A stretch of DNA of 64,000 nucleotides. Origin: Desulfurobacteriaceae bacterium (lineage in GTDB: Bacteria > Aquificota > Aquificia > Desulfurobacteriales > Desulfurobacteriaceae). Location of the stretch: contig JAMOTD010000017.1 in the NCBI GenBank assembly GCA_027068415.1, positions 3,074 through 67,073 of the forward strand. The letters are read 5' to 3'. The translations under genes were made by a program, and so were the position numbers. Positions 10,548-43,464 of the stretch are shown piece after piece; position 1 is the first letter of the stretch; the number at the start of each line of letters is the position of its first letter. The notes under the pieces were generated by a model, which did no database searches, was not told the origin of the DNA, and saw nothing but the letters and a program-made list of their open reading frames with translations.

Positions 10548-11075
10548 GGAGAGCTCCCTTACAATCTCCTCAACGTCCTCCTTTCTTACCTCCTTCCTCG
10601 TTGCAAAGTCTTCAACCCTTCCCGAGAGCCAGAAGAGGTACTGAGCCTCCTTAAAGTTCTTCCTTACTTTGCCCCTCATGACAGGCCTAAAGTACCCTAT
10701 TGGCCTGCTCCACAGGGTTACGTCCTCTGAGCCACACTTCTCGCAGGCCGTTTTCCTCCCCACCATCTTGTGGCCGCAGGAGTTGCACGTTGTAAGGAAG
10801 GGGGTTTTTGTTAGGTACTGAATGGGGAAGTTCTTGATTATTGAGAAGATTAACCTCTCCTGCTCCTCCGGCTTCATCTCCTCTGCAGTAAAGAGGTGCA
10901 TTATGCTTCCGCCGGTTGCGTAGCTCTGGAAGTGGGAGTTGACGTCAATCTGTTTCAGAAGGTCTCCCTCCTGGAAGGGAGCCTGAAAGCCCGAGGTAAG
11001 GAATACCCTTCCGGTGCTCGGGTCTCCTCCGACGAAGATTTTTGCCTTTACCTTTTTCTCACTAACGGCTTTCAT
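10536..11075 (-). CDS. nrdD: Anaerobic ribonucleoside-triphosphate reductase, C-terminal piece (Zn ribbon plus glycyl-radical domain)
   Basis: YATGGSIMHLF, CNSCGH...CEKCGS zinc ribbon, and glycyl-radical-like SRPIGYFRPV. Likely start is ATG 11075 (MKAVSEKK) preceded by GGAGGT, overlapping the stop of the upstream piece. Confidence 0.8.
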   Translation of the reverse strand: MKAVSEKKVKAKIFVGGDPSTGRVFLTSGFQAPFQEGDLLKQIDVNSHFQSYATGGSIMHLFTAEEMKPEEQERLIFSIIKNFPIQYLTKTPFLTTCNSCGHKMVGRKTACEKCGSEDVTLWSRPIGYFRPVMRGKVRKNFKEAQYLFWLSGRVEDFATRKEVRKEDVEEIVRELSSIT

Positions 11076-14000: not shown

Positions 14001-15102
14001 GGGAAATTTGGCCGTGGGCGTTGAGGGTTCCATCCCCGTCAAGTAGGCCTGCAACGATTCCCTTTAAGAACTCTTTTGAGTACCTGAGAATTCGGGGGGA
14101 GAGGCTCTTTTGGGGAGCTCTCCCGTAGGATACAAAGTTTTTTAGAAAGGCTATGAAAGCCCTGTTCGGAACTGAGAGGGCGTAGCCATTCTCGGCTTTT
14201 CCGATTGAGGAGTAGACGCCGCACTCCTTAAAGAGGATTTTCTGGAGCTTTTCTAAGGTTTTTTTCTCTTTCTGGACTATTGAGATTGAGGAGGGGATTC
14301 CGCCGGAAGTTTTTACGTAGCCTTCGGCGAGGAAGAAACCGATAAAGTAGCCGAGCTCCTCTGAGAGCTTTACCCTCCTCTTCATTCCGTTAAGGTTTGA
14401 GTTTTCTGAAGGCTTTAGGATTACGAAGTCTTCGGTAATCAGGAGGCCCTCTTCCTCAATGAGCTCTGCCGCGTCAACCTCTTCTACTTTAAATAGGTAG
14501 TCTTTTAAGAAGGGGGCAACTTCAACCCTAAACTGTTTGTCCTCAAAAGGAAGGAGCTCTTGGGCGGGCTTTGCATCTCTATCCTTATCCTCTCCCACTA
14601 TACAGGGATGGTCGGCCGTTACCTCAACCATCTCCCCCATTCGGGTTTTAACCACTACGATGTCCTTCTCCCTTCTCTTCTTTGTAATCCTCAAAAGCCT
14701 CGTCCAGCCCTTCCTGTCAAGTACGAAAATTTCCCTATTTGAAAGCTCCTTCTGGTAAACCTCCTTCTCCTCGTCAACTAAAATTTCCTCTTCCGGCAGG
14801 CTCTCGTAGAGCTCCTCAAAGGAGAGGAGCTTGACCTCGTCTCCCTCCCTGACTATTAGCTGGTTAACCGGTGAGTAGGAGTAGGCGCTGAGGCGGTAGG
14901 TTTGATGGTGGTAGGCCCAGCCCTCCTCGTGGTGGATTCTGACCGGGAGGCCCTTGTAGATAACGTCAAAGAGGTAGTCTTTCATAACTTCGCCTACTAC
15001 AACGTGCTCAAGGACGGGAACTCCCCGGACGAAGTTTGCGTTGTTCCTTGAGATGTCGTCGTTGTCTATGAAGAGTTCTATCAGCTTGAAGTACTTGTTC
15101 AT
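11062..15102 (-). CDS. nrdD: Anaerobic ribonucleoside-triphosphate reductase, N-terminal piece, interrupted by two inteins
   Basis: The extein reads ...RIHHEEGWAYHHQTYRLSAY|CIGLSAKDIAFYGL...AAPPKRLETLF...IAQEVSGA...YSNC|CRMLFD...EYAPSENAACRMAEKD. Likely start is ATG 15102 (MNKYFKL), in an ATGA overlap with the nrdG stop. Confidence 0.85.
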   Translation of the reverse strand: MNKYFKLIELFIDNDDISRNNANFVRGVPVLEHVVVGEVMKDYLFDVIYKGLPVRIHHEEGWAYHHQTYRLSAYSYSPVNQLIVREGDEVKLLSFEELYESLPEEEILVDEEKEVYQKELSNREIFVLDRKGWTRLLRITKKRREKDIVVVKTRMGEMVEVTADHPCIVGEDKDRDAKPAQELLPFEDKQFRVEVAPFLKDYLFKVEEVDAAELIEEEGLLITEDFVILKPSENSNLNGMKRRVKLSEELGYFIGFFLAEGYVKTSGGIPSSISIVQKEKKTLEKLQKILFKECGVYSSIGKAENGYALSVPNRAFIAFLKNFVSYGRAPQKSLSPRILRYSKEFLKGIVAGLLDGDGTLNAHGQISLRLSSPKLTYQLSYIFQILGYPPAMRFEECKNTTNKYGITQRRPLYGVMFTYKQGYETLPSEKFKRAVEWKRERGIGDNEFYRVNDWVSVQSVRRIENELTLSEYEFVYDITTESHTFVLHNLWVHNCIGLSAKDIAFYGLQSNAKNERRAAPPKRLETLFMQCANLICLIAQEVSGATSLNDLSTVAAGYLYYLEKEGRKSYSDYELENLWQEFLYNINLPFRSGNSPFSNITLDFGKPNSRLRYEPVVYAGKFLDITYEKIPPHYFDRINTAFIKAMRRGDADGNPFTFPLITVNITEDFDRNNPAWKLLLKESEYFGGFYVQNYLKEPFTKPSKYKEKNPFIKPFDEGMIYSNCCLDPETKLFVYTEGKELPDWITLREIKEKFTGRVISQGSSEKWWEVKGLSVPSINPKTGKIEKKKITKLLQISSKKEVKIKFRNGFEMTCDPSHRVAVFSPEEKRITWKPACEVRPGDFGLSIKRALSEAENYEKLSDGTPLNEEIAWFFGYFYAEGCFIKDSRNREKVNGIVLTAGLKERDKLKKAGEIALKYFGDKISSTNYYTEKWQGKESSVQLWIYGRALGEFLLKNGVVKYAEIPPALKSSPKSVVESFLKGFIDGDGYTRGGHTELHVNDESLIRELSSLLWAHGIRHTLRVRENSQTLKLSKPTKSSCYSLVPSTLIREKSVVTPSGNRSYIKTPTVSEEFIRKYRLDSGAIKDYREWDVEIIKVESVEERTLKEPKTYLDIEVEDNETFILANGIVSFNCRMLFDISQVEAVTGSNPFHSGSGVGGIGVYAINLNRLLFLAKDDFEFLKRMIDYTMEIGAKALQRKREWLRKHWKDLFPYLSFYQKDDRSLFNIFSVVGVHEGMVNAGFKDGLFNDEAKEYAHRIAQYLYKKLHQFMERDKVLYSLEYAPSENAACRMAEKDIAFANALAEVLNGQRKPEISKDPYLNLFIKEAITKFGENLFERVEVKDESR
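11707..12930 (-). mobile_element. Intein 2 of NrdD (408 aa) with LAGLIDADG homing-endonuclease domain
   Basis: Starts CLDPETKLFVYTEG and ends ILANGIVSFN followed by +1 Cys. LAGLIDADG motifs IAWFFGYFYAEGCF and FLKGFIDGDGYT. Removing it restores NCCRM(L), which matches my recollection of the NrdD NCCRL segment. Confidence 0.8.
13621..14880 (-). mobile_element. Intein 1 of NrdD (420 aa) with LAGLIDADG homing-endonuclease domain, Ser at position 1
   Basis: Starts SYSPVNQLIVREG (block A spacing as in VMA-type inteins). Has a TxxH block (VTADHP). LAGLIDADG motifs LGYFIGFFLAEGYV and FLKGIVAGLLDGDGTL. Ends FVLHNLWVHN followed by +1 Cys. Confidence 0.75.
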
Positions 15103-15755
15103 TCCTCCTCCACGGGGTAAAACGGGTTTACCTGGTGTGGAAGAGATTTTAGACACTCCCTGATGAGTGCGATTTCCTCCTCTTTCAGAAGGGGGTACTT
15201 AACGGTTCGGAGGATTGTGTAGGGCAGGGAATATCTCTTTATCACCTCTATTGTTATTTTTACTCTTTTGGAATAGTTATAAACTGCTGAAGGGTCTAAA
15301 CTTTTGTTTGAAAATAGAATTCTCCTAAAGCGTTCAAGCTGGTCGGGGGTGTACTCATCAAGGAGGGGAATTTTTACGTCAAGGGCTACTCCGTCTATTA
15401 ATCCATTTTCGGCCAGTTTTTCAACCCTTTCGGGGAGGGTTCCGTTTGTATCAACCCTTACTGGAAAGCCCTCCTCCTTTATCAGTTTGAGCCCTTCCTC
15501 CAGCCTCTCCTCTAAGGTGGGTTCTCCTCCCGAAACGATTATCAGCTCAACTCCTAAGAGCTTAAGCATTTGGAGTTTTTCCCTCAGCTCTTCCTCTTTA
15601 AAGAACTCCTCCTTTCCCCTGAAGGCGTGGCGGTTATGACACTGATAGCAGTTGAGGTTGCACTGGTGGATTTTTGTATAAAGGAGTGCTGAGAAAACTC
15701 CCGGGTGGTCGTTAAAAGTGGTGGGAATCTCAACTTTCAGGAAGGGGGTCTCCAT
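15099..15755 (-). CDS. nrdG: Anaerobic RNR activating protein (radical SAM)
   Basis: CNLNCYQCHN CxxxCxxC cluster motif, SGGEPTL, and position directly upstream of nrdD with an ATGA overlap. Confidence 0.85.
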   Translation of the reverse strand: METPFLKVEIPTTFNDHPGVFSALLYTKIHQCNLNCYQCHNRHAFRGKEEFFKEEELREKLQMLKLLGVELIIVSGGEPTLEERLEEGLKLIKEEGFPVRVDTNGTLPERVEKLAENGLIDGVALDVKIPLLDEYTPDQLERFRRILFSNKSLDPSAVYNYSKRVKITIEVIKRYSLPYTILRTVKYPLLKEEEIALIRECLKSLPHQVNPFYPVEEE

Positions 15756-15843: not shown

Positions 15844-18003
15844 TTATTGTTCTTCTTTCCTGAGTTTTCGGGCAAGTCTTACCAGGTTCCTTAAGGCGGG
15901 GATTACCTCTTCCCAGCGCCTCGTCTTCAAACCGCAGTCGGGGTTAACCCAGAACTTCTCTTTTGGAATTACCCTGAGAGCTCTCTCAACAATCTCGGCC
16001 ATCTCCTCAACCGAGGGGACGTAAGGGGTGTGAATGTCCCAGACTCCCAGACCTATCTGCCTGTCAAAGTTAACCTTTTCAAAGGCTTCAATTATGTCCC
16101 CCTTGGAGCGGGTGGCCTCAATTGAGATAACGTCAAAATCCATCTGGAGTATGTACTCCATAATCTCGCCGAACTCGGAGTAGCACATGTGGGTGTGGAT
16201 TTGGGTTTCGGGCTTTACACAGCTGTGGCAGAGCCTGAAGGCCTTTACCGCCCAGTCAAAGTACTCGTCCCACTCCCTCTTCTTTAGGGGGGCCTTCTCC
16301 CTTATCGCCGGCTCGTCTATCTGGACGATTTTTATCCCCTCCTTCTCGTAGTCGGCAATTTCATCTTTCAGGGCAAGGGCAATCTGGTATGCAACTTCCC
16401 TTATAGGAATGTCTTCCCTTACAAAGCTCCAGGCTATTATCGTTGTGGGTCCGGTCAGCATTCCCTTTACGGGCTTCTCTGTAAGGCTCTGGGCAAAGGC
16501 AATCTCCTTAACCGTCATTTGGCCGTCCCTTTCAACGTCTCCGTAGATAATCGGAGGCCTGTAGCACCTTGTTCCGTAGGAGATTACCCAGCCGTTTCCG
16601 GTTGTTGCTATTCCCTTCATCTTCTCTGCAAAGAACTCAACCATGTCGCTGCGCTCAAACTCCCCGTGAACGAGAACGTCAAGGCCGAGCTCCTTCTGAA
16701 TCTCTATCGCCTTTGCTATCTCGCCCCTTATGAATGTCTCGTAGTCCTCCTGAGAGAGCTTCCCTTTCTTGTAGAAGAGCCTAACTCTTCTAACCTCTTC
16801 CGTCTGGGGGAAGGAGCCGATTGTCGTTGTTGGGAAAAGGGGAAGGTTTAAGACCTCTTTCTGAATCTTTTCCCTCTCGGGGTAGGCCGGTCTCCTTACG
16901 AAGTCCTCCTCCTTTAAGGAGGCCACCCTTTCCCTTACCCTTTTAATCTCTCCGAAGGAGCTCTCAAGCCCTTCTACCCACTCTTTCGCCCTCTCCTCTT
17001 TGCCCTGTAGGAGCTCTGCCAAAAGGCTCAGCTCCTCCAACTTCTCCTGTGCAAAGGCAACCTTCTTTAAGAGTTCCTGGGGCAGAGTAGCTCCGGAGAG
17101 GCTTACGGGAAGGTGGAAGAGGGGAGCGGCGTTGGTTATTACGGTTTTAAACCTGCCTGAGAGCTCTTTTAGAACTCGGGCGGTTTTAAAGAGGTCGTTT
17201 CTCCAGACGTTCCTTCCGTCAACAACCCCCGCAAAGAGGGTTTTGTCGCTCTCAATCTCCTTTAACTGTTTAAGGTTCCCCCCTCCGTCGTGGATGAGGT
17301 CAACTCCGACTCCGCTTACCGGGAGCTCAAAAACTTCACTCAGCCTGTCCACTCCCGCGTAGTAGGTAAAGAGGTTTATCGGGATTTCCGCTTTTGAGAG
17401 CTCCCGGTAGACCTCCTTTAAAACCTCCCACTCCTTGTCTGAGAGCTCTAATGCCAGTGCCGGCTCGTCAATGTGGAGGCTCTTAAACTCCATCTCCTTT
17501 GCAAACTGAACCGTTAGGCGGGCAACCTCCAGTACCCTCTCCTTAAACTCCTCTTCCTTAACCTCTTTAGAGAGCTTTACGAAGGTGAAGGGGCCGATTA
17601 GGTAGGCGTTTTCCTCTCCCTTTTTCCACTTGGGGTAGGGGAGGTTTGAGAGGGAGAGCTCTTTTCCGGAAAAGTCGGGAACGAGGTAGTGGTAGTTGGT
17701 GTTAAACCACTTCTTCATCTGGAGGGCGTTTTTGCCCCTGCAGAGCTCAAAGTAGTCGGGGAGGCTTTCGGCCCTGTAGAGGCCGAAGAGGACTGCCTGG
17801 TCAACCATGTGGTCGTAGAGGGTCATCTCTGAACTCGGGTGGCCGCCGACTCTGGCGTAGGCCTCCTCCCTCTTTTTGTTGAGCTCCTCAATTCCCTTAA
17901 GGAGCTCCCCTTCTGTCAGCTTTCCCGACCAGTAGCCCTCTACCAGTCTCTTAAACTCCCTGTTCTTCCCGAGCCTCGGGAAGCCGTAAGCGTAGGTTTT
18001 CAT
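15844..18003 (-). CDS. metE: Cobalamin-independent methionine synthase
   Basis: MKTYAYGFPRLGKNREFK N-terminus and two Meth_synt halves (TTTIGSFPQT, HTHMCYS, NPDCGLKTR). ATG 18003 is preceded by GGAGGT. The longer listed ORF extension runs through the leader RNA. Confidence 0.9.
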   Translation of the reverse strand: MKTYAYGFPRLGKNREFKRLVEGYWSGKLTEGELLKGIEELNKKREEAYARVGGHPSSEMTLYDHMVDQAVLFGLYRAESLPDYFELCRGKNALQMKKWFNTNYHYLVPDFSGKELSLSNLPYPKWKKGEENAYLIGPFTFVKLSKEVKEEEFKERVLEVARLTVQFAKEMEFKSLHIDEPALALELSDKEWEVLKEVYRELSKAEIPINLFTYYAGVDRLSEVFELPVSGVGVDLIHDGGGNLKQLKEIESDKTLFAGVVDGRNVWRNDLFKTARVLKELSGRFKTVITNAAPLFHLPVSLSGATLPQELLKKVAFAQEKLEELSLLAELLQGKEERAKEWVEGLESSFGEIKRVRERVASLKEEDFVRRPAYPEREKIQKEVLNLPLFPTTTIGSFPQTEEVRRVRLFYKKGKLSQEDYETFIRGEIAKAIEIQKELGLDVLVHGEFERSDMVEFFAEKMKGIATTGNGWVISYGTRCYRPPIIYGDVERDGQMTVKEIAFAQSLTEKPVKGMLTGPTTIIAWSFVREDIPIREVAYQIALALKDEIADYEKEGIKIVQIDEPAIREKAPLKKREWDEYFDWAVKAFRLCHSCVKPETQIHTHMCYSEFGEIMEYILQMDFDVISIEATRSKGDIIEAFEKVNFDRQIGLGVWDIHTPYVPSVEEMAEIVERALRVIPKEKFWVNPDCGLKTRRWEEVIPALRNLVRLARKLRKEEQ

Positions 18004-18169
18004 GGGTTTACCTCCTGCGGCGTTTTTGTTTAAACGCCTGCAGGCGGTTCTTGAGGCGGGAAAAAGAGGAGGCAAAAAAGACAAAAGTAGCCCCTTCTCC
18101 TTTCCCGCGTCCCGAACCCCCGCAGGACGCGAAGGGGCAGGCTTTCGCCCGCCCATCTCGGGCCGGTCT

Positions 18170-18332
18170 CCCGGCTCGCAGGCTTCTTTTGTGCCGTAAA
18201 CCTTCCCGGAGCGGTGGCTCTTAACCTCTCCGCTCCAGTGGTTTACAGCCTTTTTAATGCCTGCTCACGGTTGCGAGGACAGCGCCGGACTTTCACCGGA
18301 CTTCCCGTTCACCCGAGACGGGGCAATTTTAG
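18170..18332 (-). promoter_or_regulatory. Cobalamin (B12) riboswitch in the metE leader
   Basis: The minus strand reads ...GGGTGAACGGGAAGTCCGGTGAAAGTCCGGCGCTGTCCTCGCAACCGTGAGC...GAGCCACCGCTCCGGGAAGG. This covers the conserved core and a B12-box-like GCCAC(C)G element, upstream of a B12-independent methionine synthase. Confidence 0.8.
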
Positions 18333-20627: not shown

Positions 20628-22922
20628 ATGAACAGAATAACCGTAGTGAAGAGGAAAGGGGTAAGGGAGCCTCTCAACATTGAGAAAATCAGGAAGGTAA
20701 TCAACTGGGCTGCCGAAGGGCTGGACTTAAACCCCTTAAAGCTTGAGGCAAAGCTGAAACTCCACTTCTTTAACGGGATTACGACCCGCCAGATTCACGA
20801 GGCCGTTGTAAATACGGCACTCCATCTTACTACCCCAGAAGAGCCCGACTGGAGAATCTTAGCCGGAAGGCTCTTCATCTTTAACCTCTACAAAGAGGTT
20901 GCAATCAGGAGGGGAACCAGCAAGCTGGCCTACGTCGGCGGCGGAGAGGAGTACCTCAAGGTAGTTAAAGACTTAATAGAGAAAGGCCTCTACACTCCGG
21001 AGCTCCTTGAATCCTACACCGAAGAGGAGATTATTGAGGCCGGCGACTACCTGAAGCTCCGGTACGACTTCCTCTACGACTACGCAGGGGCAAACCTTCT
21101 TGCAAAAAGGTACCTCTGCGTCTACGAGGATTTCCCCATAGAGCTCCCTCAAGAGATGTACATGACAATTGCCCTGATGCTTGCAAAGAACGAACCGAAG
21201 GAAGTGAGGCTCAAAACTGCAAAGAAGTTTTACGACCTGATAGCCGGGAAGAAGCTTTCACTTGCCACCCCGATTCTCATTAACCTGCGCCGTCCCAACG
21301 GAAACCTCTCCTCCTGCTTCATTACGGCAATGGACGACAACCTTGACTCAATCATGTACACGGCAAACCAGGTTGCCCAGATTTCAAAGAGAGCAGGAGG
21401 AGTTGGGGTTAACCTCTCAAGAATCAGGGCTCAGGGCTCCTGGATTAAAAAGGTTTTCGGGGCAAGCGGCGGAATAGTTCCCTGGACCAAAATCCTTAAC
21501 GACGTTGCAGTTGCGGTTAACCAGGAGGGCAAAAGGGCAGGTGCGGTTACCGTGGCCCTTGACGTCTGGCACCTTGACATCTACGACTTCTTGGAACTTA
21601 AGACCGAAAACGGAGACCTAAGGCGCAAGGCCTTTGACATCTTCCCTCAGGTGGTAATCCCTGACCTCTTTATGGAGAGGGTAAAGTTCAACCAGGATTG
21701 GCTCTTAGTTGACCCCTACGAAGTTGAGAGGAAGTTCGGCTACAAACTCTACGAGCTGTGGGGAGACGAGTTTGAGAAGGCCTACATCCACATTGAGGCC
21801 GAGGCCGAAAAACTGAAGTTAAAGAAAAGGGTTAGGGCCAGAGAGCTCCTTAAGGAGATTTTGAAAACGCAAGTTGCAACCGGCCTGCCCTACATCTTTT
21901 TCAAGGACACCGCCAACCGCCTCAACCCCTTAAAGCACGACGGCTACATAGGCAACGGAAACCTCTGTATGGAGAGTTTCTCAAACTTTAAGCCCTCTAA
22001 AGGCTTTAAGACCTACGTGAAGGACGGTAAAATCATTAACGAGATAGAAGAGCCGGGGCTCGTCCACACATGTAACCTCCTCTCAATAAACCTTGCGAAC
22101 ATAGAAAACGATGCTGAGCTTGAGGAGGCAGTAAGGACTGCAGTAAGAATCCTTGATAACACCATAGAGCTAACCTCTCCTCCGATTTTAGAGAGTAAGT
22201 TCCACAACGACCGCTACAGAACAATAGGCATTGGGACACTGGGCCTTGCCGACTATCTTGCAAAGAGGGAAATTCCCTACGGAAGGCAGTCTTTGAAAGT
22301 TATTGACGAGCTCTACGAGAAAATTGCCTACTACGGAATTGACGAGAGCATTAACCTTGCTAAAGAAAGGGGAGTCTTCCCTGCCTACGAGGGCTCAGAC
22401 TGGAGCAAGGGAATAGTAATAGGTAAAGATGCCGAGTATTTAAGCGAAAAGACTACCCTGAAAGAGAAGTGGTTGGAGCTCCTTGCCAAGCTCAAGAAGT
22501 ACGGAATAAGGAACGGCCAGCTCTTTGCAATTGCTCCAAACACCAGCTCCGGCCTCCTTCAGGGTGCAACCCCCGGAGTTCTTCCGCCCTTCAGCAGGTT
22601 CTACATTGACAAGAACCAGAAGCAGGCCGTCCCGATTTGCCCTCCCTACATTAAGGAGAGGTTCTGGTTCTACAGGGAAAGCAAGTTTATGGACCAGAAG
22701 GAAGTTATAGACGTTATCTCAACTATTCAGAAGTGGGTTGATAGCGGAATTTCAATGGAGCTCCTATTCAACCTCAACCTCGGAATAAGGGCTAAAGACA
22801 TCTACGAAACCGTCCTCTACGCTTGGGAGAAGGGGATTAAGACCATTTACTACGTCAGGACTATTCAGAAAGATAGTCAAGGAGTTCTCAAGAAAGAGGA
22901 GTGTATCGCCTGCGCCAGCTAA
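20628..22922 (+). CDS. nrdA: Class I ribonucleoside-diphosphate reductase alpha subunit
   Basis: N-terminal ATP-cone (VVKRKGVREPLNIEKIRKVI), LSSCFI, NLCMES active-site segment, and C-terminal CIACAS Cys pair. Confidence 0.9.
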   Translation: MNRITVVKRKGVREPLNIEKIRKVINWAAEGLDLNPLKLEAKLKLHFFNGITTRQIHEAVVNTALHLTTPEEPDWRILAGRLFIFNLYKEVAIRRGTSKLAYVGGGEEYLKVVKDLIEKGLYTPELLESYTEEEIIEAGDYLKLRYDFLYDYAGANLLAKRYLCVYEDFPIELPQEMYMTIALMLAKNEPKEVRLKTAKKFYDLIAGKKLSLATPILINLRRPNGNLSSCFITAMDDNLDSIMYTANQVAQISKRAGGVGVNLSRIRAQGSWIKKVFGASGGIVPWTKILNDVAVAVNQEGKRAGAVTVALDVWHLDIYDFLELKTENGDLRRKAFDIFPQVVIPDLFMERVKFNQDWLLVDPYEVERKFGYKLYELWGDEFEKAYIHIEAEAEKLKLKKRVRARELLKEILKTQVATGLPYIFFKDTANRLNPLKHDGYIGNGNLCMESFSNFKPSKGFKTYVKDGKIINEIEEPGLVHTCNLLSINLANIENDAELEEAVRTAVRILDNTIELTSPPILESKFHNDRYRTIGIGTLGLADYLAKREIPYGRQSLKVIDELYEKIAYYGIDESINLAKERGVFPAYEGSDWSKGIVIGKDAEYLSEKTTLKEKWLELLAKLKKYGIRNGQLFAIAPNTSSGLLQGATPGVLPPFSRFYIDKNQKQAVPICPPYIKERFWFYRESKFMDQKEVIDVISTIQKWVDSGISMELLFNLNLGIRAKDIYETVLYAWEKGIKTIYYVRTIQKDSQGVLKKEECIACAS

Positions 22923-22927
22923 CCTTC

Positions 22928-22947
22928 GGGGGCTTGTGCCCCCTTTT
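22928..22947 (+). terminator. Intrinsic terminator after nrdA
   Basis: GGGGGC-TTGT-GCCCCC followed by TTTT. Confidence 0.6.
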
Positions 22948-22970: not shown

Positions 22971-23792
22971 GTGAAGCTGTTTATAACCCAGAACTCTTTC
23001 CTTTCCGTTTCACGGGGGATTTTGAAGGCAAAGGGAAGGGGGGAATGTCGGATACCCCTCAAAGAGCTTGAGGGAATAGGGCTTTTTGTCAACCTAAGGA
23101 GTTTTAAGACTTCTATTCTGCCGAAATTAAGGGAGAAAGGGATTTACGCTTTTTCGGTCCTTCCGGAAAAGGGGTTGGAGCTCTTCTCTTTTCCCGAGCT
23201 TTCCCCTTTTAACCTCTCCGTCCTTTCCTCCTACCTCTTTATTGAGCTTAAGGCCAAAGCGGTAGCTTCGGCTTTAAAGGGAATCGGCACTCTAAGCGGC
23301 TCTTCTCTTGAAGTTAAACCCTTCGTATCCGACGCCTTAAGGGTTTTAAGAGAGGTCGGGGGCATTAAAGGCTCTTTTGAGGTAAAAAGTCTAAACGGTT
23401 ATCTTGATAAAGCCCTTTACGGTTACCTTTTGAGGAAGCTGGAGTATGCACCTTTCCCCTCAAAGGATAAAGAACCCTATTTTGTTTCTCTCGTTCTTTA
23501 CTACAGGGAGGTTGTAAAGGGGCTTTTGGGATTCGTACTCCTTAAAGAGGGGATTAAGATTGAGAGGGAGCTCCAGGAGCTCCTTGGAAGTCTTTTAGAG
23601 CCCTTCGTAGCCTTTAAGAGCGCAGACGCTCTCTTTTCAACCCTTCTCCTTCCTGAAGATTTTAGGAAAAGGGGAGGTAAACTCTTTTTAAAGAGCTCAG
23701 CAGTTTCAGTTGCTGTTAAGGCCTTTATTGAGGGTTTCTTTTCAACTCAAACCCTTATGCCCGTAATTCTCTACCTGAGGGAAAGTAGATGA
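22971..23792 (+). CDS. Cas1-like protein, apparently lacking the catalytic His/Asp/Glu residues
   Basis: The N-terminus LFITQNSFLSVSRGILKAKGRGECRIPLKELEGIGLFVNLRSFKTSILPKLREKGIYAFSV has the Cas1 beta-domain pattern. The C-terminal ALYGYLL...VSLVLYYREVVKGLLGFVLL aligns by eye to Cas1 LNYGY...sLvlDLmEefRp.vvD with the acidic/His positions replaced. It sits directly upstream of cas2. Confidence 0.4.
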   Translation: MKLFITQNSFLSVSRGILKAKGRGECRIPLKELEGIGLFVNLRSFKTSILPKLREKGIYAFSVLPEKGLELFSFPELSPFNLSVLSSYLFIELKAKAVASALKGIGTLSGSSLEVKPFVSDALRVLREVGGIKGSFEVKSLNGYLDKALYGYLLRKLEYAPFPSKDKEPYFVSLVLYYREVVKGLLGFVLLKEGIKIERELQELLGSLLEPFVAFKSADALFSTLLLPEDFRKRGGKLFLKSSAVSVAVKAFIEGFFSTQTLMPVILYLRESR

Positions 23793-23793
23793 G

Positions 23794-24057
23794 ATGAGGT
23801 ACTTAGTAGTTTACGACATAGGGGATGACAAGGCCAGAGCGAAGTTTTCCAAGTTCTTGGAAAAGTTCGGGATTAGAGTTCAGCTGAGTTGTTTTGAAGT
23901 TGAGTGTGGCGAGGAGGATGTTAAAAGGATAGTAAAGAAGGCGGAGGAGCTTATTGAGCCTTCCTGCGACTCGGTCATTCTCTATCCTTTAACGGCAAAC
24001 TCCTTAAAGCAGGAAATAGTAATTAGGGGAGAGAGAGGGTGGAGTTCTTCGTTGTAA
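23794..24057 (+). CDS. cas2: CRISPR-associated endoribonuclease Cas2 family protein
   Basis: MRYLVVYDIGDDKARAKFSKFLEKFGIRVQLSCFEV is the canonical Cas2 N-terminal ferredoxin-fold pattern. 87 aa. Confidence 0.7.
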   Translation: MRYLVVYDIGDDKARAKFSKFLEKFGIRVQLSCFEVECGEEDVKRIVKKAEELIEPSCDSVILYPLTANSLKQEIVIRGERGWSSSL

Positions 24058-24344
24058 TCTACGACATCTTCTCCAAAGACCCTCAGAGAGGAGCCTGGTT
24101 CTCATGTGATTACTACAGGAGAGGCAGAGTTGCGAGGGAGCTCCTAAGGTTCGGCGTAAGGGTTCAGAGGAGCGTTTACGAGGTTTATTTAAACAAGAAA
24201 GAAAAGAGAAGATTTGTTGAAAACTTAAGAAAATTAACCATTGAAGGTGATAAGGTCTTTATCTATCTAATAGAAAAGAAGGTCAGAGACAGGAAGAAGG
24301 TTGTAGGAACACCTCTTTTCCCTAAAGACCTATTAATTATTTAG
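24039..24344 (+). CDS. Second, divergent Cas2 family protein
   Basis: FFVVIYDI...RGRVARELLRFGVRVQRSVYEVYL. GTG start overlaps the preceding cas2 by 19 nt. Confidence 0.6.
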   Translation: MEFFVVIYDIFSKDPQRGAWFSCDYYRRGRVARELLRFGVRVQRSVYEVYLNKKEKRRFVENLRKLTIEGDKVFIYLIEKKVRDRKKVVGTPLFPKDLLII

Positions 24345-24386: not shown

Positions 24387-24935
24387 TCATTCTGTTTTTG
24401 CATTCCGATTTTGACTAAAATTATGTAAACCGCTTTTTCCATTTTTAGGTTTTAAGTTTGAGAAATGTCTTTCAAAGTCTTCTTTAGAAATAGGTATTAT
24501 TATTTCATTAATTTCTCCTTTTTGAACTTTTCTGATGTCTTCAAGGAATCTTAAAAGGGTTTTTCTCTCTTTCAGTTTTGAGTTGTTAAACCTGTTTTCA
24601 GGGTTGTTTTGAACCTGCCCCAATATACCCATTATCTCACTTCTGCTAATATCCTTTCTTAAAAGCTTTAATTTAGTATCAACCAATTCTTTCTCTTCAA
24701 CCTTCAACTTTATTGGAATTTCGTCCATACCCTTGCTGTACTCTCTATAGGCCAAAAAGGCCAAGACTGCCAATGCTACTGCTGAAGCAGTATCCAGTAC
24801 CGAGAAAAGTTCCCAAAGTTTAGTAAAGCTCTTAAAGCGGAAAAAGTCTCCTAAGAGACCAATAGCGAATGCTATTAAGACTATGGCTGCGAAAATTAAG
24901 AGTTCTTTATTCTTTTCCCAGTTCAAAAAGCTCAT
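24387..24935 (-). CDS. Hypothetical 2-TM membrane protein with charged cytoplasmic C-terminal domain (AT-rich islet)
   Basis: Two hydrophobic helices (LLIFAAIVLIAFAIGLL and ASAVALAVLAFLAY) followed by a ~110-aa K/E-rich domain. The base composition is clearly more AT-rich than the flanks. Confidence 0.5.
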   Translation of the reverse strand: MSFLNWEKNKELLIFAAIVLIAFAIGLLGDFFRFKSFTKLWELFSVLDTASAVALAVLAFLAYREYSKGMDEIPIKLKVEEKELVDTKLKLLRKDISRSEIMGILGQVQNNPENRFNNSKLKERKTLLRFLEDIRKVQKGEINEIIIPISKEDFERHFSNLKPKNGKSGLHNFSQNRNAKTE

Positions 24936-24995: not shown

Positions 24996-25454
24996 GTGAA
25001 AGTGAAGTTTTTGATAGAATTTATAGCTACGGGCTTTTTTTCAGGGAAGCTTCCGAAAATGCCCGGTACTTGGGGCTCTATTTTAGCTGCCTTTCTTGTT
25101 TACCTCTTCTGGTCCAATAATGTTGCCCTTCAGCTATTGATAATTGGAATAACTTTCGCCCTCAGCGTGGTTTCGGCCGACTTTGTGGCAAAAGAGTCGG
25201 GGAACAAAGACCCCGACGAGGTTGTAATAGACGAGATTTTGGGGATAGAGCTAACCTTTTTCCTCCTCAATCCCCACGGGAACTGGAAGTTAGCCTTGGC
25301 CGGACTCGTTCTCTTTAGGATTATTGATATAATGAAACCGTTTCCTATTCGCCTTTTTGAGAGACTTCCCGGCGGCTGGGGAATTACCGTAGACGACGCA
25401 GTGGCCGGGATAATGGCCAACATTCTCCTTAGAATTCTCGGAGGGTTTCTTTAA
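24996..25454 (+). CDS. pgpA: Phosphatidylglycerophosphatase A
   Basis: GKLPKMPGTWGS, DPDEVVIDEILG, KPFPIR, GGWGITVDDAVAG. Confidence 0.8.
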   Translation: MKVKFLIEFIATGFFSGKLPKMPGTWGSILAAFLVYLFWSNNVALQLLIIGITFALSVVSADFVAKESGNKDPDEVVIDEILGIELTFFLLNPHGNWKLALAGLVLFRIIDIMKPFPIRLFERLPGGWGITVDDAVAGIMANILLRILGGFL

Positions 25455-29218: not shown

Positions 29219-30720
29219 TGGTTTCAAAGGTTAGGAGCTACGCAACTTCCGGAATAGACGCCCTTGAGGTTTTCGTTGAAGTTGACTCCTCAAGAGGGTT
29301 GCCCTCGGTCGTAATAGTCGGCCTGCCCGACAGTGCCGTTAAGGAGAGTAAAGAGAGGGTAAGGGCTGCAATCGTTAACTCCGGCTTTCCCTTTCCTTTA
29401 AAGAAGGTTGTTGTGAACCTTGCCCCTGCAGATATAAGGAAGGAGGGGACGGTTTACGACCTTCCGATAGCTTTGGGGATACTTGCCTCTTCGGGGATTT
29501 TAAAGGGAGAGAGGCTCGGCGATTACTTGATTGCCGGTGAGCTGGGTTTGGGAGGAGAGCTCCACCCGGTAAAAGGAGTTCTTCCCGCTGCTATTTTGGC
29601 TAAGGAGTTGGGAATTAAGGGGCTTATCGTTCCCGAGGCCAACGTTGAGGAGGCCCTCTTAATTGAGGGAATTGAGATAATTCCCGTAAAGAGCCTCTCT
29701 GAGTGTGTAAGCTTTTTAAACGGTGAGGTTGAGATAGAGCCGGCCGAGGGGAGCTCCCTCCCCGAAAATTCTTCCTACCCCGTTGATATGGCCGACGTTG
29801 TGGGCCAGTTCCACGCTAAGAGAGCCCTTGAAATAGCCGCCGCAGGCAGACACAACGTTTTTATGGTAGGGCCTCCCGGCTCGGGAAAGACGATGCTCGC
29901 AAGGCGCCTTCCTACCATAATGCCCCCTATGAGCCTTGAGGAAATTATAGAGACCAGCCGCATCTACTCCGTTGCAGGCTTAACGTCGGAAGTTCCCGTT
30001 GTTCAGAGGCCTTTTAGGGCTCCTCACTCAACCTCTTCAGATGCGGCGGTTATCGGAGGGGGGAATAGTGTTAAGCCGGGAGAGGTCTCCCTCGCCCATA
30101 ACGGAGTTCTCTTCATGGACGAGTTCCCGGAGTTTAAGCGGAGCGTCCTTGAGGCTCTGAGGCAGCCCCTTGAAGATAGAAGAGTAACCGTTTCAAGGGC
30201 TTCGGGCTCTTATACTTTCCCTGCCGACTTTATACTGGTTGCGGCAAGCAACCCCTGTCCCTGCGGCTTTTACGGCTTCTCAGACGGCAAAAACTACTGC
30301 CGCTGCTCCCCGGTTCAGATAAAGCGCTACCGGTCAAAACTTTCGGGCCCCATAATGGACAGGCTTGATTTAAAGGTAAACGTTCCGGCCGTTAAGCCCG
30401 AGGAGTTTAAGAATTCGGAGTCTGAGCCCTCTGAGAGGATAAGGGAGAGGGTTATTAAGGCCTACGAAATCCAGCAGAGGAGGTTTAAGGGGCTCAAAAT
30501 CTCCTTTAACGGCCAGATGGGAAGGAGAGAGATAAAGAGGTTCTGTAAGCTGGAGCTTGAGGCCGAGGAGCTCTTAAATCGCGCCGTCTCCTCCCTCGGC
30601 CTTTCAGCCAGAGCTTACGATAGGATTTTAAAGGTTGCAAGGACTATTGCAGACCTTGAGGCTTCCGACCTTATCTCTTCCTACCATATAGCCGAGGCTT
30701 TGAGCTACAAGGAAGTTTAA
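29212..30720 (+). CDS. comM: YifB/ComM family Mg-chelatase-like AAA+ ATPase
   Basis: Lon-protease-like N-domain, Walker A GPPGSGKTM, FMDEFPEF Walker B, and a Cys cluster NPCPCGFYG...CRCS. Confidence 0.85.
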   Translation: MVMVSKVRSYATSGIDALEVFVEVDSSRGLPSVVIVGLPDSAVKESKERVRAAIVNSGFPFPLKKVVVNLAPADIRKEGTVYDLPIALGILASSGILKGERLGDYLIAGELGLGGELHPVKGVLPAAILAKELGIKGLIVPEANVEEALLIEGIEIIPVKSLSECVSFLNGEVEIEPAEGSSLPENSSYPVDMADVVGQFHAKRALEIAAAGRHNVFMVGPPGSGKTMLARRLPTIMPPMSLEEIIETSRIYSVAGLTSEVPVVQRPFRAPHSTSSDAAVIGGGNSVKPGEVSLAHNGVLFMDEFPEFKRSVLEALRQPLEDRRVTVSRASGSYTFPADFILVAASNPCPCGFYGFSDGKNYCRCSPVQIKRYRSKLSGPIMDRLDLKVNVPAVKPEEFKNSESEPSERIRERVIKAYEIQQRRFKGLKISFNGQMGRREIKRFCKLELEAEELLNRAVSSLGLSARAYDRILKVARTIADLEASDLISSYHIAEALSYKEV

Positions 30721-31438
30721 CCTTACTGCATGTATTTTGCTCTTTAAGACGGCTGTTTATGGGATTTCCGTGCTTTCCAAGTCCGTACTCTTTTATAAGA
30801 GAAGAAATGTAGCTTTCTAATTCCGAAAATAACACTGAGAAATTCTCCCGAGTACAATAACGGATGCCACGGTTATTAAGGCAACATAGGAACTTCTTAG
30901 CAAATTCAATGCATTTATCTCCAAAATAGAGAAATTCTTTGCAAATAAAAACCCTATTTCCCCAAATATCTTGGATTATGGCTCCGTATTTTTCTTTTAA
31001 TTTTTCATTTCTGAAAAATTCATCTACTTTAGAGACCGGGATGTATGCTTCTTCATCTGGGATTGATTTACTGTCATGTTCGTGTCCTCTTATCCACTTC
31101 CAGTTATTATTTTCTATATAGTAAACATTGTCTCCTTGAGGGTTTGAAGGTGAATACTTTTTGTTCTCAAATCTTGGGTCGTAAAAGTATGAATTTAAGT
31201 CTAAAACTTCACATACTTTCCCAGCATAAATTAAACACCGTTCAATTTCTGGATGATAACCAGCCTTTATTCTCTCTTCAGATAGAGTTTCACCTTCAAC
31301 TCCAATAATCCAATCTCCTTTCCCTATGTTTGCTCTTTGGTGGTTTGGAGTACATGAAGCTAAGGTAAGATAGTTTTCAAAAGGGTTGGGGGCAAAACCT
31401 GAGTCTGATGTCATTTTATAGAGAAGAAATTTTCTCAT
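30671..31438 (-). CDS. Hypothetical protein, possibly Nmad2-like (nucleotide-modification-associated domain 2); AT-rich islet
   Basis: The N-terminal YKMTSDSGFAPNPFENYLTLASCTPNHQRANIGKGDWIIG resembles my recollection of the D.GFAPNP...TLA.CKP.IR...GDWI.G family. The assignment is from memory only. Confidence 0.35.
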   Translation of the reverse strand: MRKFLLYKMTSDSGFAPNPFENYLTLASCTPNHQRANIGKGDWIIGVEGETLSEERIKAGYHPEIERCLIYAGKVCEVLDLNSYFYDPRFENKKYSPSNPQGDNVYYIENNNWKWIRGHEHDSKSIPDEEAYIPVSKVDEFFRNEKLKEKYGAIIQDIWGNRVFICKEFLYFGDKCIEFAKKFLCCLNNRGIRYCTRENFSVLFSELESYISSLIKEYGLGKHGNPINSRLKEQNTCSKVKLPCSSKPRLYGRKR

Positions 31439-43462: not shown

Positions 43463-43464
43463 TT

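What the first reader, a model, noticed from the sequence alone, without database searches (positions are those of the whole stretch)
22971..24344. Orphan Cas1-like pseudoenzyme plus two tandem Cas2 genes, with no CRISPR array or effector genes
This three-gene cassette lies directly after the nrdA terminator.

- A 273-aa protein has an N-terminal half that follows the Cas1 beta-domain pattern. In the C-terminal half, the positions that align by eye to the Cas1 metal-binding/catalytic residues are substituted (SLVLYYREVVKG versus sLvlDLmEefRp.vvD). The protein is also about 50 aa shorter than typical Cas1.
- A canonical 87-aa Cas2 follows, separated by 1 nt.
- A second, divergent 101-aa Cas2 overlaps the first by 19 nt.

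I found no repeat-spacer array, leader or cas effector genes anywhere in the 64 kb, and the flanks are housekeeping genes (nrdA, pgpA). Possible explanations are a decaying adaptation module, or a Cas1/Cas2-derived module exapted for a non-CRISPR role. For example, a Cas2 nuclease pair could act as a toxin-like or signalling module with the Cas1-like protein as a scaffold.
Basis: partly seen in the sequence, partly recalled or inferred. Interest (0 to 1): 0.75.

Follow-up and report, generated by a model that had tools for sequence, protein, structure and literature searches.

The report
Dead Cas1 paralog with two Cas2
A small operon in a hot-vent bacterium (Thermovibrio) encodes a conserved Cas1 copy that has lost every catalytic residue, plus two different Cas2 proteins; relatives keep this operon at the far end of a CRISPR array, but here the array is gone, so it may be an undescribed non-enzymatic helper of CRISPR memory formation.

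Summary
The three ORFs are real and lie at the stated coordinates. Both small proteins are true Cas2 (Pfam 5.5e-21 and 3.4e-11).

**The 273-aa protein ("X")**
- X matches no Pfam, NCBIfam or PADLOC model.
- It is nevertheless a full-length Cas1 homolog. Profile-profile comparison gives E 1e-6 to 3e-6 over about 231 colinear columns, against a best score of half that in 30 shuffled controls. All top 50 Foldseek hits are Cas1 or casposase. It also sits at the cas1 position.
- All eight invariant Cas1 motif residues, including the E/D-H-D triad, are replaced in all five known X homologs.
- X is not decaying: dN/dS is 0.11 at dS of about 1.

**Context**
- The Cas2a+Cas2b pair is normal for this lineage's type III-linked adaptation module. 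A comparable pair is required in Vibrio vulnificus.
- In T. ammonificans and two metagenomic relatives the trio abuts the trailer end of a CRISPR array. T. ammonificans also has an active cas1 plus a cas2::cas2 fusion at the leader end.
- In this genome the array and active module are missing.

**Verdict:** this is a lineage-specific, selectively maintained Cas1 pseudoenzyme operon. It is CRISPR-associated by ancestry and orphaned here. Its mechanism is inferred, not shown.

The parts
22928..22947 (+). Hairpin GGGGGC-UUGU-GCCCCC followed by UUUU, just after the nrdA stop. It is a possible intrinsic terminator. Only about 23 nt separate it from the X start codon.
   Evidence: -14.5 kcal/mol, z = -0.7, so not distinctive. 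The sequence is shown.
22971..23792 (+). X: a 273-aa Cas1-derived pseudoenzyme. It has the N-terminal beta domain and C-terminal alpha domain of Cas1. All canonical catalytic and motif residues are replaced, it has no His, and it is net basic.
   Evidence: - hhalign 88-91% probability, E 1e-6 to 2.8e-6, about 231 columns.
- BLASTP against the L007 Cas1, 6e-5.
- Foldseek top 50 hits are all Cas1.
- Residue table.
- dN/dS 0.11.
23794..24057 (+). cas2a: a canonical 87-aa Cas2, 1 nt after the X stop. In relatives the two genes overlap by 4 nt.
   Evidence: PF09827 5.5e-21, TIGR01573 8.5e-19. It is 45% identical to the Cas2a next to the active Cas1 in L007.
24039..24344 (+). cas2b: a 101-aa Cas2 subfamily with an insertion of about 12 aa after beta1 and a conserved C-terminal G-T-P-x-x-P-x-D-I/L-x-I-L tail. 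It overlaps cas2a by 19 nt.
   Evidence: PF09827 3.4e-11. It is 42% identical to L007 Cas2b. Subfamily alignment.
24181..24190 (.). Recombination or allele breakpoint inside cas2b. Identity to L003 drops from about 0.82 to about 0.65 here. Several independent assemblies of the same strain end here.
   Evidence: L015 (99.8% identical) spans the junction, so the arrangement is real.
24387..24935 (-). csx23: a type III CRISPR ancillary protein with two N-terminal hydrophobic helices and a Csx23 C-terminal domain. It occupies the place that holds the array, cas2::cas2 and cas1 in T. ammonificans.
   Evidence: PADLOC PDLC01550 4e-17. PDB 8qjk Csx23 E 0.024. Synteny.
24996..25454 (+). pgpA: the downstream synteny anchor, shared with the T. 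ammonificans locus together with accC and oadA.
20628..22922 (+). nrdA: the upstream synteny anchor, shared with L003 and L005. T. ammonificans has a mur ligase here instead, because of an inversion.

Best explanation
**What it is**
- The cassette is a duplicated CRISPR adaptation operon in which the Cas1 integrase has become a conserved, catalytically dead paralog (X).
- X is tightly co-encoded with a Cas2a/Cas2b pair. The genes are separated by 1 nt and overlap by 19 nt here, and show 4-nt and 19-36-nt overlaps in relatives.
- The operon is specific to the genus Thermovibrio. It sits next to pgpA, facing the trailer end of a CRISPR array whose repeat (GTTGAAATGCCCGAAAAAGnnnnCGGGATTGCGAC) belongs to a type III-linked system (cas6, csx1/Card1, CARF-TM, csx3).
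- In this genome, recombination with a breakpoint inside cas2b removed the array and the neighbouring active cas1-cas2::cas2 module. It left csx23 in their place.

**How it most likely works (inferred)**
1. Cas2a and Cas2b form a heterodimer.
2. X dimers dock on that heterodimer to give a Cas1-Cas2-like assembly.
3. The assembly can hold DNA, since X is net +13.
4. It cannot perform transesterification.
5. It therefore acts non-catalytically in adaptation, either as a scaffold, prespacer holder or regulator, or as the supplier of Cas2 to a Cas1 encoded elsewhere.

**Shown:** homology, loss of catalytic residues, purifying selection, operon conservation, array association in relatives.
**Inferred:** complex formation, DNA binding, role in adaptation.
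For: **X is a Cas1 homolog**
- hhalign of the X family against 16 Cas1 sequences: 88-91% probability, E 1e-6 to 2.8e-6, about 231 colinear columns. Thirty column-shuffled controls score at most 25.6, against 51.2 for the real comparison.
- Pairwise BLASTP against the L007 Cas1: 6e-5.
- The P0005 N-terminus hits Cas1 profiles: PADLOC 2.9e-5, Pfam 0.0042, TIGR00287 0.0086.
- An X-only AF2 model gives Cas1 or casposase as all top 50 PDB hits.
- The joint-MSA model has pLDDT 89 and TMq up to 0.72 to Cas1.

**Catalytic loss**
- Eight positions are invariant in 15 Cas1 sequences and all are replaced in 5 X sequences.

**Selection**
- dN/dS is 0.11 (X), 0.08 (cas2a) and 0.07 (cas2b) at dS of about 1.

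**Synteny**
- L007: active cas1-cas2a-cas2b-array.
- T. ammonificans: X-cas2a-cas2b, then the array, then cas2::cas2 and cas1 on the other strand, then pgpA.
- L003 and L005: nrdA-X-cas2a-cas2b-array.

**Cas2 heterodimer**
- Cas2::Cas2 fusions occur in T. ammonificans and L023.
- Both Cas2A and Cas2B are required in V. vulnificus (PMC6821258).

**Breakpoint and junction:**
Against: - No experimental or multimer-model evidence shows that X binds Cas2a/Cas2b or DNA.
- HMM-to-sequence searches do not link X to Cas1. The window protein has no hit at E<=1 in Pfam, NCBIfam or PADLOC, and the X-family HMM finds nothing in PDB sequences.
- The confident AF2 model used an MSA that contained Cas1 sequences, so it is partly circular.
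- In this genome no array or active cas1 is visible within 64 kb, so a role in adaptation cannot be demonstrated here.
- The X family keeps invariant acidic residues (D146, E193, E200, E229, E254). These might form a different active site.
- Within the T. ammonificans lineage the few substitutions (6 nonsynonymous, 3 synonymous) do not demonstrate constraint.
Confidence: 0.6

Rival explanations
1. The trio has been exapted for a function unrelated to CRISPR arrays. One example is a Cas2-based nuclease, toxin-like or signalling module with X as scaffold or antidote. This would explain why it survives here without an array.
For: - In the window lineage the trio persists, fully intact and identical across several samples, with no array or cas1 in 64 kb.
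- The trio always lies at the trailer end with no leader of its own, which is an odd place for an acquisition module.
Against: - Three of four other lineages keep the trio directly beside an array.
- Its Cas2a/Cas2b are orthologous to the pair serving an active Cas1.
- The replacement neighbour, csx23, is itself a CRISPR type III accessory gene.
- No viral or mobile-element copies were found.
Confidence: 0.17
2. X is still an enzyme. It would have a relocated or alternative active site built from family-invariant D146, E193, E200, E229 and E254, and would carry out integration or another DNA transaction.
For: Invariant acidic residues flank the positions of the lost His and Asp. Purifying selection is strong.
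Against: - Every one of eight Cas1-invariant positions is lost, and the substitutes differ among X homologs: N/I, L/M, L/F/Q/K, S/R/L/N.
- The window X has no His at all.
- X evolves about twice as fast as its Cas2 partners: 26% identity to T. ammonificans, against 47-51% for the Cas2s.
Confidence: 0.1
3. The cassette is a non-functional remnant of an adaptation module on its way to being lost.
For: - The array and active cas1 are absent here.
- X is undetectable by standard Cas1 models.
- The few T. ammonificans-lineage substitutions are mostly nonsynonymous.
Against: - dN/dS is 0.07-0.11 at saturating dS.
- ORF lengths are identical (273, 273, 273 and 272 aa), with no frameshifts or stops across lineages down to 26% identity.
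- Translational-coupling overlaps are conserved.
Confidence: 0.07
4. X is not related to Cas1. It could instead be a TetR-like or other helical protein, as RefSeq's name for Theam_1532 suggests, and the similarity would be chance plus gene-order coincidence.
For: RefSeq calls it a 'TetR-like C-terminal domain-containing protein'. Pfam TetR_C_8 scores 0.057 on P0005. The X-family HMM finds nothing in PDB sequences.
Against: - Cas_Cas1 outscores TetR_C_8 on the same protein.
- The full-length colinear profile-profile match is far above shuffled controls.
- Foldseek hits are unanimously Cas1, even from a model built without any Cas1 sequence.
- X sits at the cas1 position, upstream of an orthologous cas2a-cas2b pair.
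Confidence: 0.03

Closest known systems
Cas1 integrase (PF01867 / TIGR00287), specifically the Desulfurobacteriaceae type III-linked clade (L007 Cas1; T. ammonificans Cas1, L009 12692-13588)
   Same: - Two-domain fold.
- Colinear motifs: EYAPFPS ~ REYYPPPD, LGFV ~ LGFFH, PEDF..G..LK ~ KEDF..G..L.
- Position immediately upstream of cas2a-cas2b.
- Proximity to an array of the same repeat family.
   Different: - All catalytic and motif residues are replaced (E/D, R, D, N, H, D, E, R).
- It is 25-40 aa shorter.
- It falls below every curated model threshold.
- It faces the trailer end of the array, not the leader end.
- It evolves much faster.
Two-Cas2 adaptation operons (RT-Cas1-Cas2A-Cas2B of the Vibrio vulnificus YJ016 type III-D system; PMC6821258)
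   Same: - Two different Cas2 genes follow the Cas1-family gene in one operon.
- The association is with type III systems.
- A heterodimeric Cas2 unit is proposed there. Here it is supported by natural Cas2::Cas2 fusions in T. ammonificans and L023.
   Different: - There is no reverse transcriptase.
- Cas2a and Cas2b are only about 28-35% identical here, against about 70% in Vibrio.
- The Cas1-family partner is catalytically dead.
Cas1-solo proteins and casposases
   Same: They are Cas1-fold proteins found away from CRISPR arrays. Casposase structures appear among the Foldseek hits.
   Different: - By my own knowledge, casposases keep the catalytic residues and lie in elements with terminal inverted repeats and a family B polymerase.
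- X has lost the residues.
- X is flanked by cas2 genes and housekeeping genes at a conserved chromosomal site.
Non-catalytic protomer of the Cas1 dimer in Cas1-Cas2 complexes (e.g. PDB 5ds4, 7ei1)
   Same: By my own knowledge of these structures, only one Cas1 of each dimer uses its active site and the other is structural. A dead Cas1 could in principle fill a purely structural role.
   Different: There the two protomers are the same polypeptide. Here a separate gene would be dedicated to the non-catalytic role. This was not tested.

Membership tests
Cas1 (PF01867 / TIGR00287) | Score above the curated family threshold in sequence-profile models | tested here: not met
   - The window X has no hit at E<=1 in Pfam, NCBIfam or PADLOC.
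- Its homolog P0005 scores 16.7 bits against a 22.3 cut-off (Pfam), and 15.2 against 71.7 (TIGR00287).
Cas1 (PF01867 / TIGR00287) | Two-domain fold: N-terminal beta-sandwich plus C-terminal alpha-helical domain | tested here: met
   - Secondary structure shows beta strands at 1-73 and helices at 87-271.
- The Foldseek top 50 are all Cas1 or casposase from both models. The best are 7ei1_H at 4.7e-4 (X-only MSA) and 2yzs_A at 2.2e-8, with TMq up to 0.72 (joint MSA).
Cas1 (PF01867 / TIGR00287) | Conserved metal-binding and catalytic residues (Glu/Asp, His, Asp) and the associated R..PP.DP.N and D..E..RP motifs | tested here: not met
   In the joint alignment, 15 of 15 Cas1 sequences keep all eight positions and 5 of 5 X sequences have none. 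X has N142, S164, K167, L190, L204, S207 and E210, plus a gap at the R position. The window X contains no His.
Cas1 (PF01867 / TIGR00287) | Encoded next to cas2 | tested here: met
   cas2a starts 1 nt after the X stop. The order X-cas2a-cas2b is conserved in L003, L005 and L009.
Cas1 (PF01867 / TIGR00287) | Spacer integrase activity | not testable with these tools
   This needs biochemistry.
Cas2 (PF09827 / TIGR01573) | Score above curated thresholds, and the conserved Asp at the end of beta1 | tested here: met
   - cas2a scores 75 bits and cas2b 43.6 bits, against a 23.8 cut-off.
- TIGR01573 scores are 67.6 and 39.1, against 24.5.
- The motifs VVYDI and VIYDI are present.
Two-Cas2 (Cas2A/Cas2B) type III adaptation module | Two distinct cas2 genes in one operon downstream of a Cas1-family gene, linked to a type III locus | tested here: met
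   - The window trio.
- The orthologous pair next to an active Cas1 in a cas6-csx1-CARF_TM-csx3 locus (L007).
- Literature precedent: PMC6821258.
Two-Cas2 (Cas2A/Cas2B) type III adaptation module | An active Cas1 (or RT-Cas1) partner in the same operon | tested here: not met
   X lacks the catalytic residues. No RT domain was detected.
Complete CRISPR-Cas locus | A repeat-spacer array and effector-complex genes in the vicinity | tested here: not met
   - No array was found by TRF, repeat finder or Rfam, and no copy of the family repeat.
- The only other CRISPR-linked gene seen is csx23.
- The remaining non-obvious ORFs checked are not cas genes.
- The rest of the genome could not be examined.
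Csx23 (type III ancillary, cA4-binding membrane protein) | Match to Csx23 profiles, with N-terminal transmembrane helices and a C-terminal Csx23 domain | tested here: met
   - PADLOC PDLC01550 4e-17 and PDLC01072 1.2e-14.
- PDB 8qjk Csx23, 0.024, over residues 68-158.
- Two hydrophobic stretches at about residues 12-32 and 45-63, read directly from the sequence.
Casposon / Cas1-solo | Catalytically intact Cas1 within a mobile element (family B polymerase, terminal inverted repeats) | tested here: not met
   - The catalytic residues are absent.
- The neighbours are nrdA, cas2a, cas2b, csx23 and pgpA.
- The chromosomal position is conserved across species.
- Terminal inverted repeats were not specifically searched for.

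The most novel reading that the evidence does not exclude
X-Cas2a-Cas2b is a natural 'pseudo-integrase': a Cas1-Cas2-shaped complex that has given up catalysis. It would be kept at the trailer end of type III-linked arrays for one of three roles:
- to control adaptation, for example by capturing or sequestering prespacers or limiting self-acquisition;
- to maintain the array end;
- to supply the Cas2 heterodimer to solo cas1 genes such as those in L030 and L035.

It would be the first dedicated non-catalytic Cas1 paralog with a role in CRISPR memory formation.
Probability: 0.3. Interest if true: 0.8.

Novelty: new variant of a known kind. Interest (0 to 1): 0.62.

Why it matters
Cas1 is the universal, most conserved enzyme of CRISPR systems, and its integrase chemistry is regarded as its reason for being. 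A Cas1 paralog that has lost every catalytic residue but is still held under purifying selection, together with its own Cas2 heterodimer, would show that the Cas1-Cas2 architecture has a useful non-enzymatic function.

Possible functions are prespacer handling, regulation of acquisition, or array-end maintenance. This would add a pseudoenzyme to the adaptation machinery.

The family is invisible to current Cas annotation models. RefSeq calls one member 'TetR-like'. Similar cases may therefore be overlooked elsewhere.

T. ammonificans HB-1 is a cultured strain with a complete genome. It carries both the dead module (X = Theam_1532) and the active module around one five-repeat array, which makes the question directly testable.

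Tried and rejected
- **Standard family scans of X.** Pfam, NCBIfam and PADLOC gave nothing at E<=1.
- **phmmer of X against PDB.** Only noise, including a 0.16 match to Csm2 that I rejected.
- **X-family HMM against PDB sequences.** Nothing at E<=10.
- **Exhaustive HMM search of 1.84 billion representatives.** Only two clusters, so the family is very narrow.
- **Genome-collection scan with X peptide patterns.** Nothing found. The window's own stretch may be masked there.
- **Viral contigs.** Neither X nor the repeat was found, so a phage-encoded decoy origin is not supported.
- **Rfam on the repeat.** No CRISPR-DR family matched. I inferred repeat orientation from the ATTGCGAC 3' tag and from the cas1-leader-array order in L007, L009 and L030.
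- **First AF2 run with four sequences.** Low confidence, pLDDT 44.
- **Misassembly of the cas2b-csx23 junction.** Rejected, because L015 spans it at 99.8% identity.
- **The Desulfurobacteriaceae MAG (L007/L024) as the window's own genome.** Rejected on GC content, 42.7% against 49.3%.
- **Finding an active cas1 or array in the window's organism.** Candidates L023, L030, L031, L035 and L036 are other species or cannot be linked to it.
- **dN/dS within the T. ammonificans lineage.** Too few substitutions to be informative.
- **Literature searches.** Searches for inactive Cas1, Cas1 paralog, tandem Cas2 or Cas2 fusion found no prior description of this family. Only the Cas2A/Cas2B precedent turned up.
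Full report
**1. The observation**

The three ORFs exist exactly as described:

| ORF | Coordinates | Length | Note |
|---|---|---|---|
| X | 22971-23792 | 273 aa | GTG start, preceded by GGGGAGAGG |
| cas2a | 23794-24057 | 87 aa | 1 nt after the X stop |
| cas2b | 24039-24344 | 101 aa | 19-nt overlap with cas2a |

- Both small proteins are true Cas2. PF09827 gives 5.5e-21 and 3.4e-11, and TIGR01573 gives 8.5e-19 and 6.9e-10. They also match many PADLOC Cas2 models.
- The window contains no CRISPR array by Tandem Repeats Finder, the direct-repeat finder or Rfam.
It is csx23, a type III CRISPR ancillary membrane protein (PADLOC 4e-17; weak match to the solved Csx23 domain 8qjk).
- The organism is a Thermovibrio sp. 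(Aquificota, Desulfurobacteriaceae) from hydrothermal-vent metagenomes.

**2. What the 273-aa protein is**

Standard searches fail:
- X has no Pfam, NCBIfam or PADLOC hit at E<=1.
- It has no Cas1 hit by phmmer against PDB.
- An HMM of the X family finds nothing in PDB sequences.
- The family is tiny. There are four close homologs among 5.8 billion proteins. An exhaustive HMM search of 1.84 billion representatives adds only one more distant member, P0005. P0005 is Theam_1532 of T. ammonificans HB-1.

Five independent lines show that X is a full-length Cas1 homolog:
1. **Profile-profile comparison.** The X family against 16 Cas1 sequences of the local clade gives 88-91% probability and E 1e-6 to 2.8e-6. 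About 231 colinear columns are aligned (X 6-254 to Cas1 14-282). Thirty column-shuffled controls reach at most a score of 25.6 over at most 62 columns, against 51.2 for the real comparison.
2. **Pairwise BLASTP.** X against the Cas1 of a related MAG (L007) gives E 6e-5 over the C-terminal catalytic half. All weaker BLASTP hits are colinear.
3. **N-terminal domain.** The N-terminus of P0005 hits Cas1 models: PADLOC 2.9e-5, Pfam 0.0042, TIGR00287 0.0086. This outscores the TetR_C_8 match (0.057) that presumably underlies RefSeq's 'TetR-like' name.
4. **Structure.** A low-confidence AlphaFold2 model was built only from X-family sequences (pLDDT 44). It still returns Cas1 or casposase as all 50 top Foldseek hits among 350,542 PDB chains (best 4.7e-4). 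With a joint X+Cas1 alignment the model becomes confident (pLDDT 89, pTM 0.89) and superposes on Cas1 structures. The best is Aquifex aeolicus 2yzs at 2.2e-8, with TMq up to 0.72. This second model is partly circular.
5. **Gene order**, described in section 4.

**3. Loss of the active site, and selection**

In the joint alignment, 15 of 15 Cas1 sequences keep all of the following and 5 of 5 X sequences keep none:
- the acid of G[DE]G;
- R, D and N of R..PP.DP.N;
- His of GFFH;
- D and E of SD..E;
- R of RP.

In the window protein the corresponding residues are N142, a gap, S164, K167, L190, L204, S207 and E210. Only two structural prolines (P161, P211) survive. The window protein has no histidine.

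Its by-eye register (residues 173-184) was about 30 residues off.

X is not decaying:

| Gene | dN/dS, window vs L003 (dS about 0.9-2.0) |
|---|---|
| X | 0.11 |
| cas2a | 0.08 |
| cas2b | 0.07 |
| nrdA | 0.03-0.04 |

- ORF lengths are 273, 273, 273 and 272 aa, with no disruptions down to 26% identity.
- X evolves faster than its partners. It is 26% identical to the T. ammonificans X, against 47-51% for the two Cas2 proteins.
- X is basic, with 40 K+R against 27 D+E.

**4. Context in relatives**

- **L007.** A Desulfurobacteriaceae MAG carries cas6, csx1 (CARF-PD-DExK), a CARF-TM gene, csx3, an active cas1 (PADLOC 2.9e-58), cas2a (90 aa), cas2b (105 aa) and then an array. The window's Cas2a and Cas2b are 45% and 42% identical to their positional counterparts there. 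They fall into the same two subfamilies. Cas2b has an insertion of about 12 aa after beta1 and a conserved C-terminal tail. The two-Cas2 arrangement is therefore the normal state of this lineage's type III-linked adaptation module, and X sits where cas1 sits.
- **T. ammonificans HB-1 (L009).** The complete genome shows X, cas2a and cas2b, then a five-repeat array (GTCGCAATCCCGTCTACTTTTTCGGGCATTTCAAC on this strand). On the opposite strand lie a cas2::cas2 fusion (210 aa, two Pfam Cas2 stretches) and a Pfam-recognisable cas1. Two small ORFs follow. Then come pgpA, accC and oadA, which is the same downstream synteny as the window.
- **Repeat orientation.** Read on the other strand, the repeat ends in ATTGCGAC. 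That strand is co-directional with cas1 and the leader in L007, L009 and L030. The active module therefore sits at the leader end, and the X trio faces the trailer end.
- **L003 and L005.** Metagenomic relatives (X 81% and 64% identical) show nrdA-X-cas2a-cas2b followed by the same repeat in the same orientation. In L003 a degenerate terminal repeat abuts the cas2b stop codon.
- **The window.** The stretch between cas2b and pgpA holds only csx23. Nucleotide identity to L003 falls from about 0.82 to about 0.65 at about 24187, inside cas2b. Assemblies of the same strain from several samples end at that exact base or overlap it by one k-mer, which indicates co-existing alleles. L015 (99.8% identical) spans cas2a-cas2b-csx23-pgpA, so the junction is real.
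- **Upstream flank.** It differs from T. ammonificans because of an inversion. The mur-truD-radical SAM block lies at 41392-44325 in the window.

**5. How it most likely works**

Shown here:
- X is a Cas1-fold protein without the Cas1 active site.
- It is tightly co-encoded with two Cas2 paralogs.
- The unit is conserved under purifying selection.
- The unit is ancestrally attached to a type III-linked array.

Inferred:
- Cas2a and Cas2b form a heterodimer. Natural Cas2::Cas2 fusions in T. ammonificans and L023 act as Rosetta-stone evidence. In V. vulnificus both Cas2A and Cas2B are required for acquisition, and a heterodimer was proposed there (PMC6821258).
- X dimers dock on this heterodimer to give a Cas1-Cas2-shaped complex that binds DNA but cannot integrate it.
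- The complex's role would be non-catalytic. It could hold prespacers, regulate acquisition or maintain the array end.
- Alternatively it could supply Cas2 in trans to solo cas1 genes. L030 and L035 have an active cas1, a leader and an array with no adjacent cas2. I could not link those contigs to an X-bearing genome.

My confidence in the identity and evolutionary picture is high, about 0.85. My confidence in the mechanistic role is modest, about 0.35.

**6. Rivals**

- **Exaptation to a non-CRISPR role.** This is possible for this genome, but the array association in relatives and the csx23 neighbour argue against it.
- **A relocated active site.** Family-invariant D146, E193, E200, E229 and E254 cannot be excluded as an alternative site without structures and assays.
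- **Decay.** dN/dS contradicts this.
- **Non-homology, as in the RefSeq 'TetR-like' label.** The controls above contradict this.

**7. Comparison with known systems, and novelty**

- The tandem Cas2 pair is already known in type III-D RT-Cas1 modules (PMC6821258).
- Csx23 and the repeat type are ordinary.
- What appears undescribed is a conserved, catalytically dead Cas1 paralog with its own Cas2 pair. Literature searches for inactive or paralogous Cas1, tandem Cas2 or Cas2 fusions found nothing equivalent.
- Public annotations call the family 'hypothetical' or 'TetR-like'.
- X fails two defining Cas1 features (model thresholds and catalytic residues), so I do not file it as a Cas1 integrase. 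I file it as a Cas1-derived pseudoenzyme, which is a new variant of a known kind.
- Its narrow taxonomic range (one genus so far) tempers the interest. The availability of a cultured strain carrying both dead and active modules around one small array raises it.

Noticed in passing
L009 12059-12691 (T. ammonificans HB-1) and L023 7678-8313: Single polypeptides of 210-211 aa contain two Cas2 domains (two Pfam Cas2 stretches). They lie directly downstream of an active cas1. This is a natural Cas2::Cas2 fusion, which implies that the Cas2 dimer of this lineage is a pseudo-heterodimer.
   Followed up: partly
L030 3521-4662 and L035 10001-11154: An active-looking cas1 (300 aa) is followed after about 145 nt by the array in its functional orientation, with no cas2 gene beside it. 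The contigs have window-like GC (49%). Cas2 may be supplied from elsewhere.
   Followed up: partly
L031 26-2468: csx1 (Card1-like CARF plus endonuclease), a CARF-TM gene and csx3 are followed directly by the array. There is no cas1-cas2a-cas2b, unlike the otherwise similar L007 locus. The adaptation genes have moved or been lost in that lineage.
   Followed up: partly
window 24181-24190: Assembly graphs from several independent samples (L001, L002, L016, L020-L022) branch at the same base inside cas2b. This suggests two co-existing alleles in the vent populations. The alternative allele was not recovered.
   Followed up: partly
window 11062-15156 (-) and 15099-15755 (-): An anaerobic ribonucleotide reductase NrdD of 1364 aa carries an intein with LAGLIDADG traces (precomputed Pfam hits on the identical L001 gene). 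Its radical-SAM activase lies next to it. The same window also holds class I nrdA (20628-22922) and nrdB (39089-40147, -).
   Followed up: no
window 18144-18331 (-): A cobalamin riboswitch (Rfam RF00174, 91.9 bits) lies upstream of the methionine synthase metE gene (15844-18156, -). This is an ordinary arrangement.
   Followed up: no
window 30671-31438 (-): A 255-aa protein carries an Nmad2 domain (nucleotide modification associated domain 2, PF18753, 2e-32). It sits between a Mg-chelatase-like ATPase gene and aroC.
   Followed up: no
window 1082-1732 (-) and 1764-2402 (-): Two tandem paralogous HDOD-domain proteins (PF08668, about 1e-22 each).
   Followed up: no
window 40158-40775 (-) and 40811-41221 (-): Two adjacent ORFs (205 and 136 aa) with no Pfam match lie next to nrdB. 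They are close to the inversion boundary relative to T. ammonificans (the mur-truD-rSAM block at 41392-44325).
   Followed up: no
L009 5708-6973 (T. ammonificans): csx1 (CARF plus HEPN) is split into three consecutive ORFs of 58, 145 and 234 aa. It may be a disrupted type III ancillary gene, a few kb upstream of the X trio.
   Followed up: no
L009 10001-10819 (WP_013538278.1): RefSeq names the T. ammonificans X homolog 'TetR-like C-terminal domain-containing protein'. On that protein Pfam TetR_C_8 scores only E 0.057, which is weaker than Cas_Cas1 (0.0042). The name is probably misleading.
   Followed up: yes
L029 331-1293: A 320-aa ORF that looks by eye like an IS200/IS605-type OrfB/TnpB protein (C-terminal zinc-ribbon motif). 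It lies on a contig that ends in an array of the same repeat family. It was not tested with any profile.
   Followed up: no
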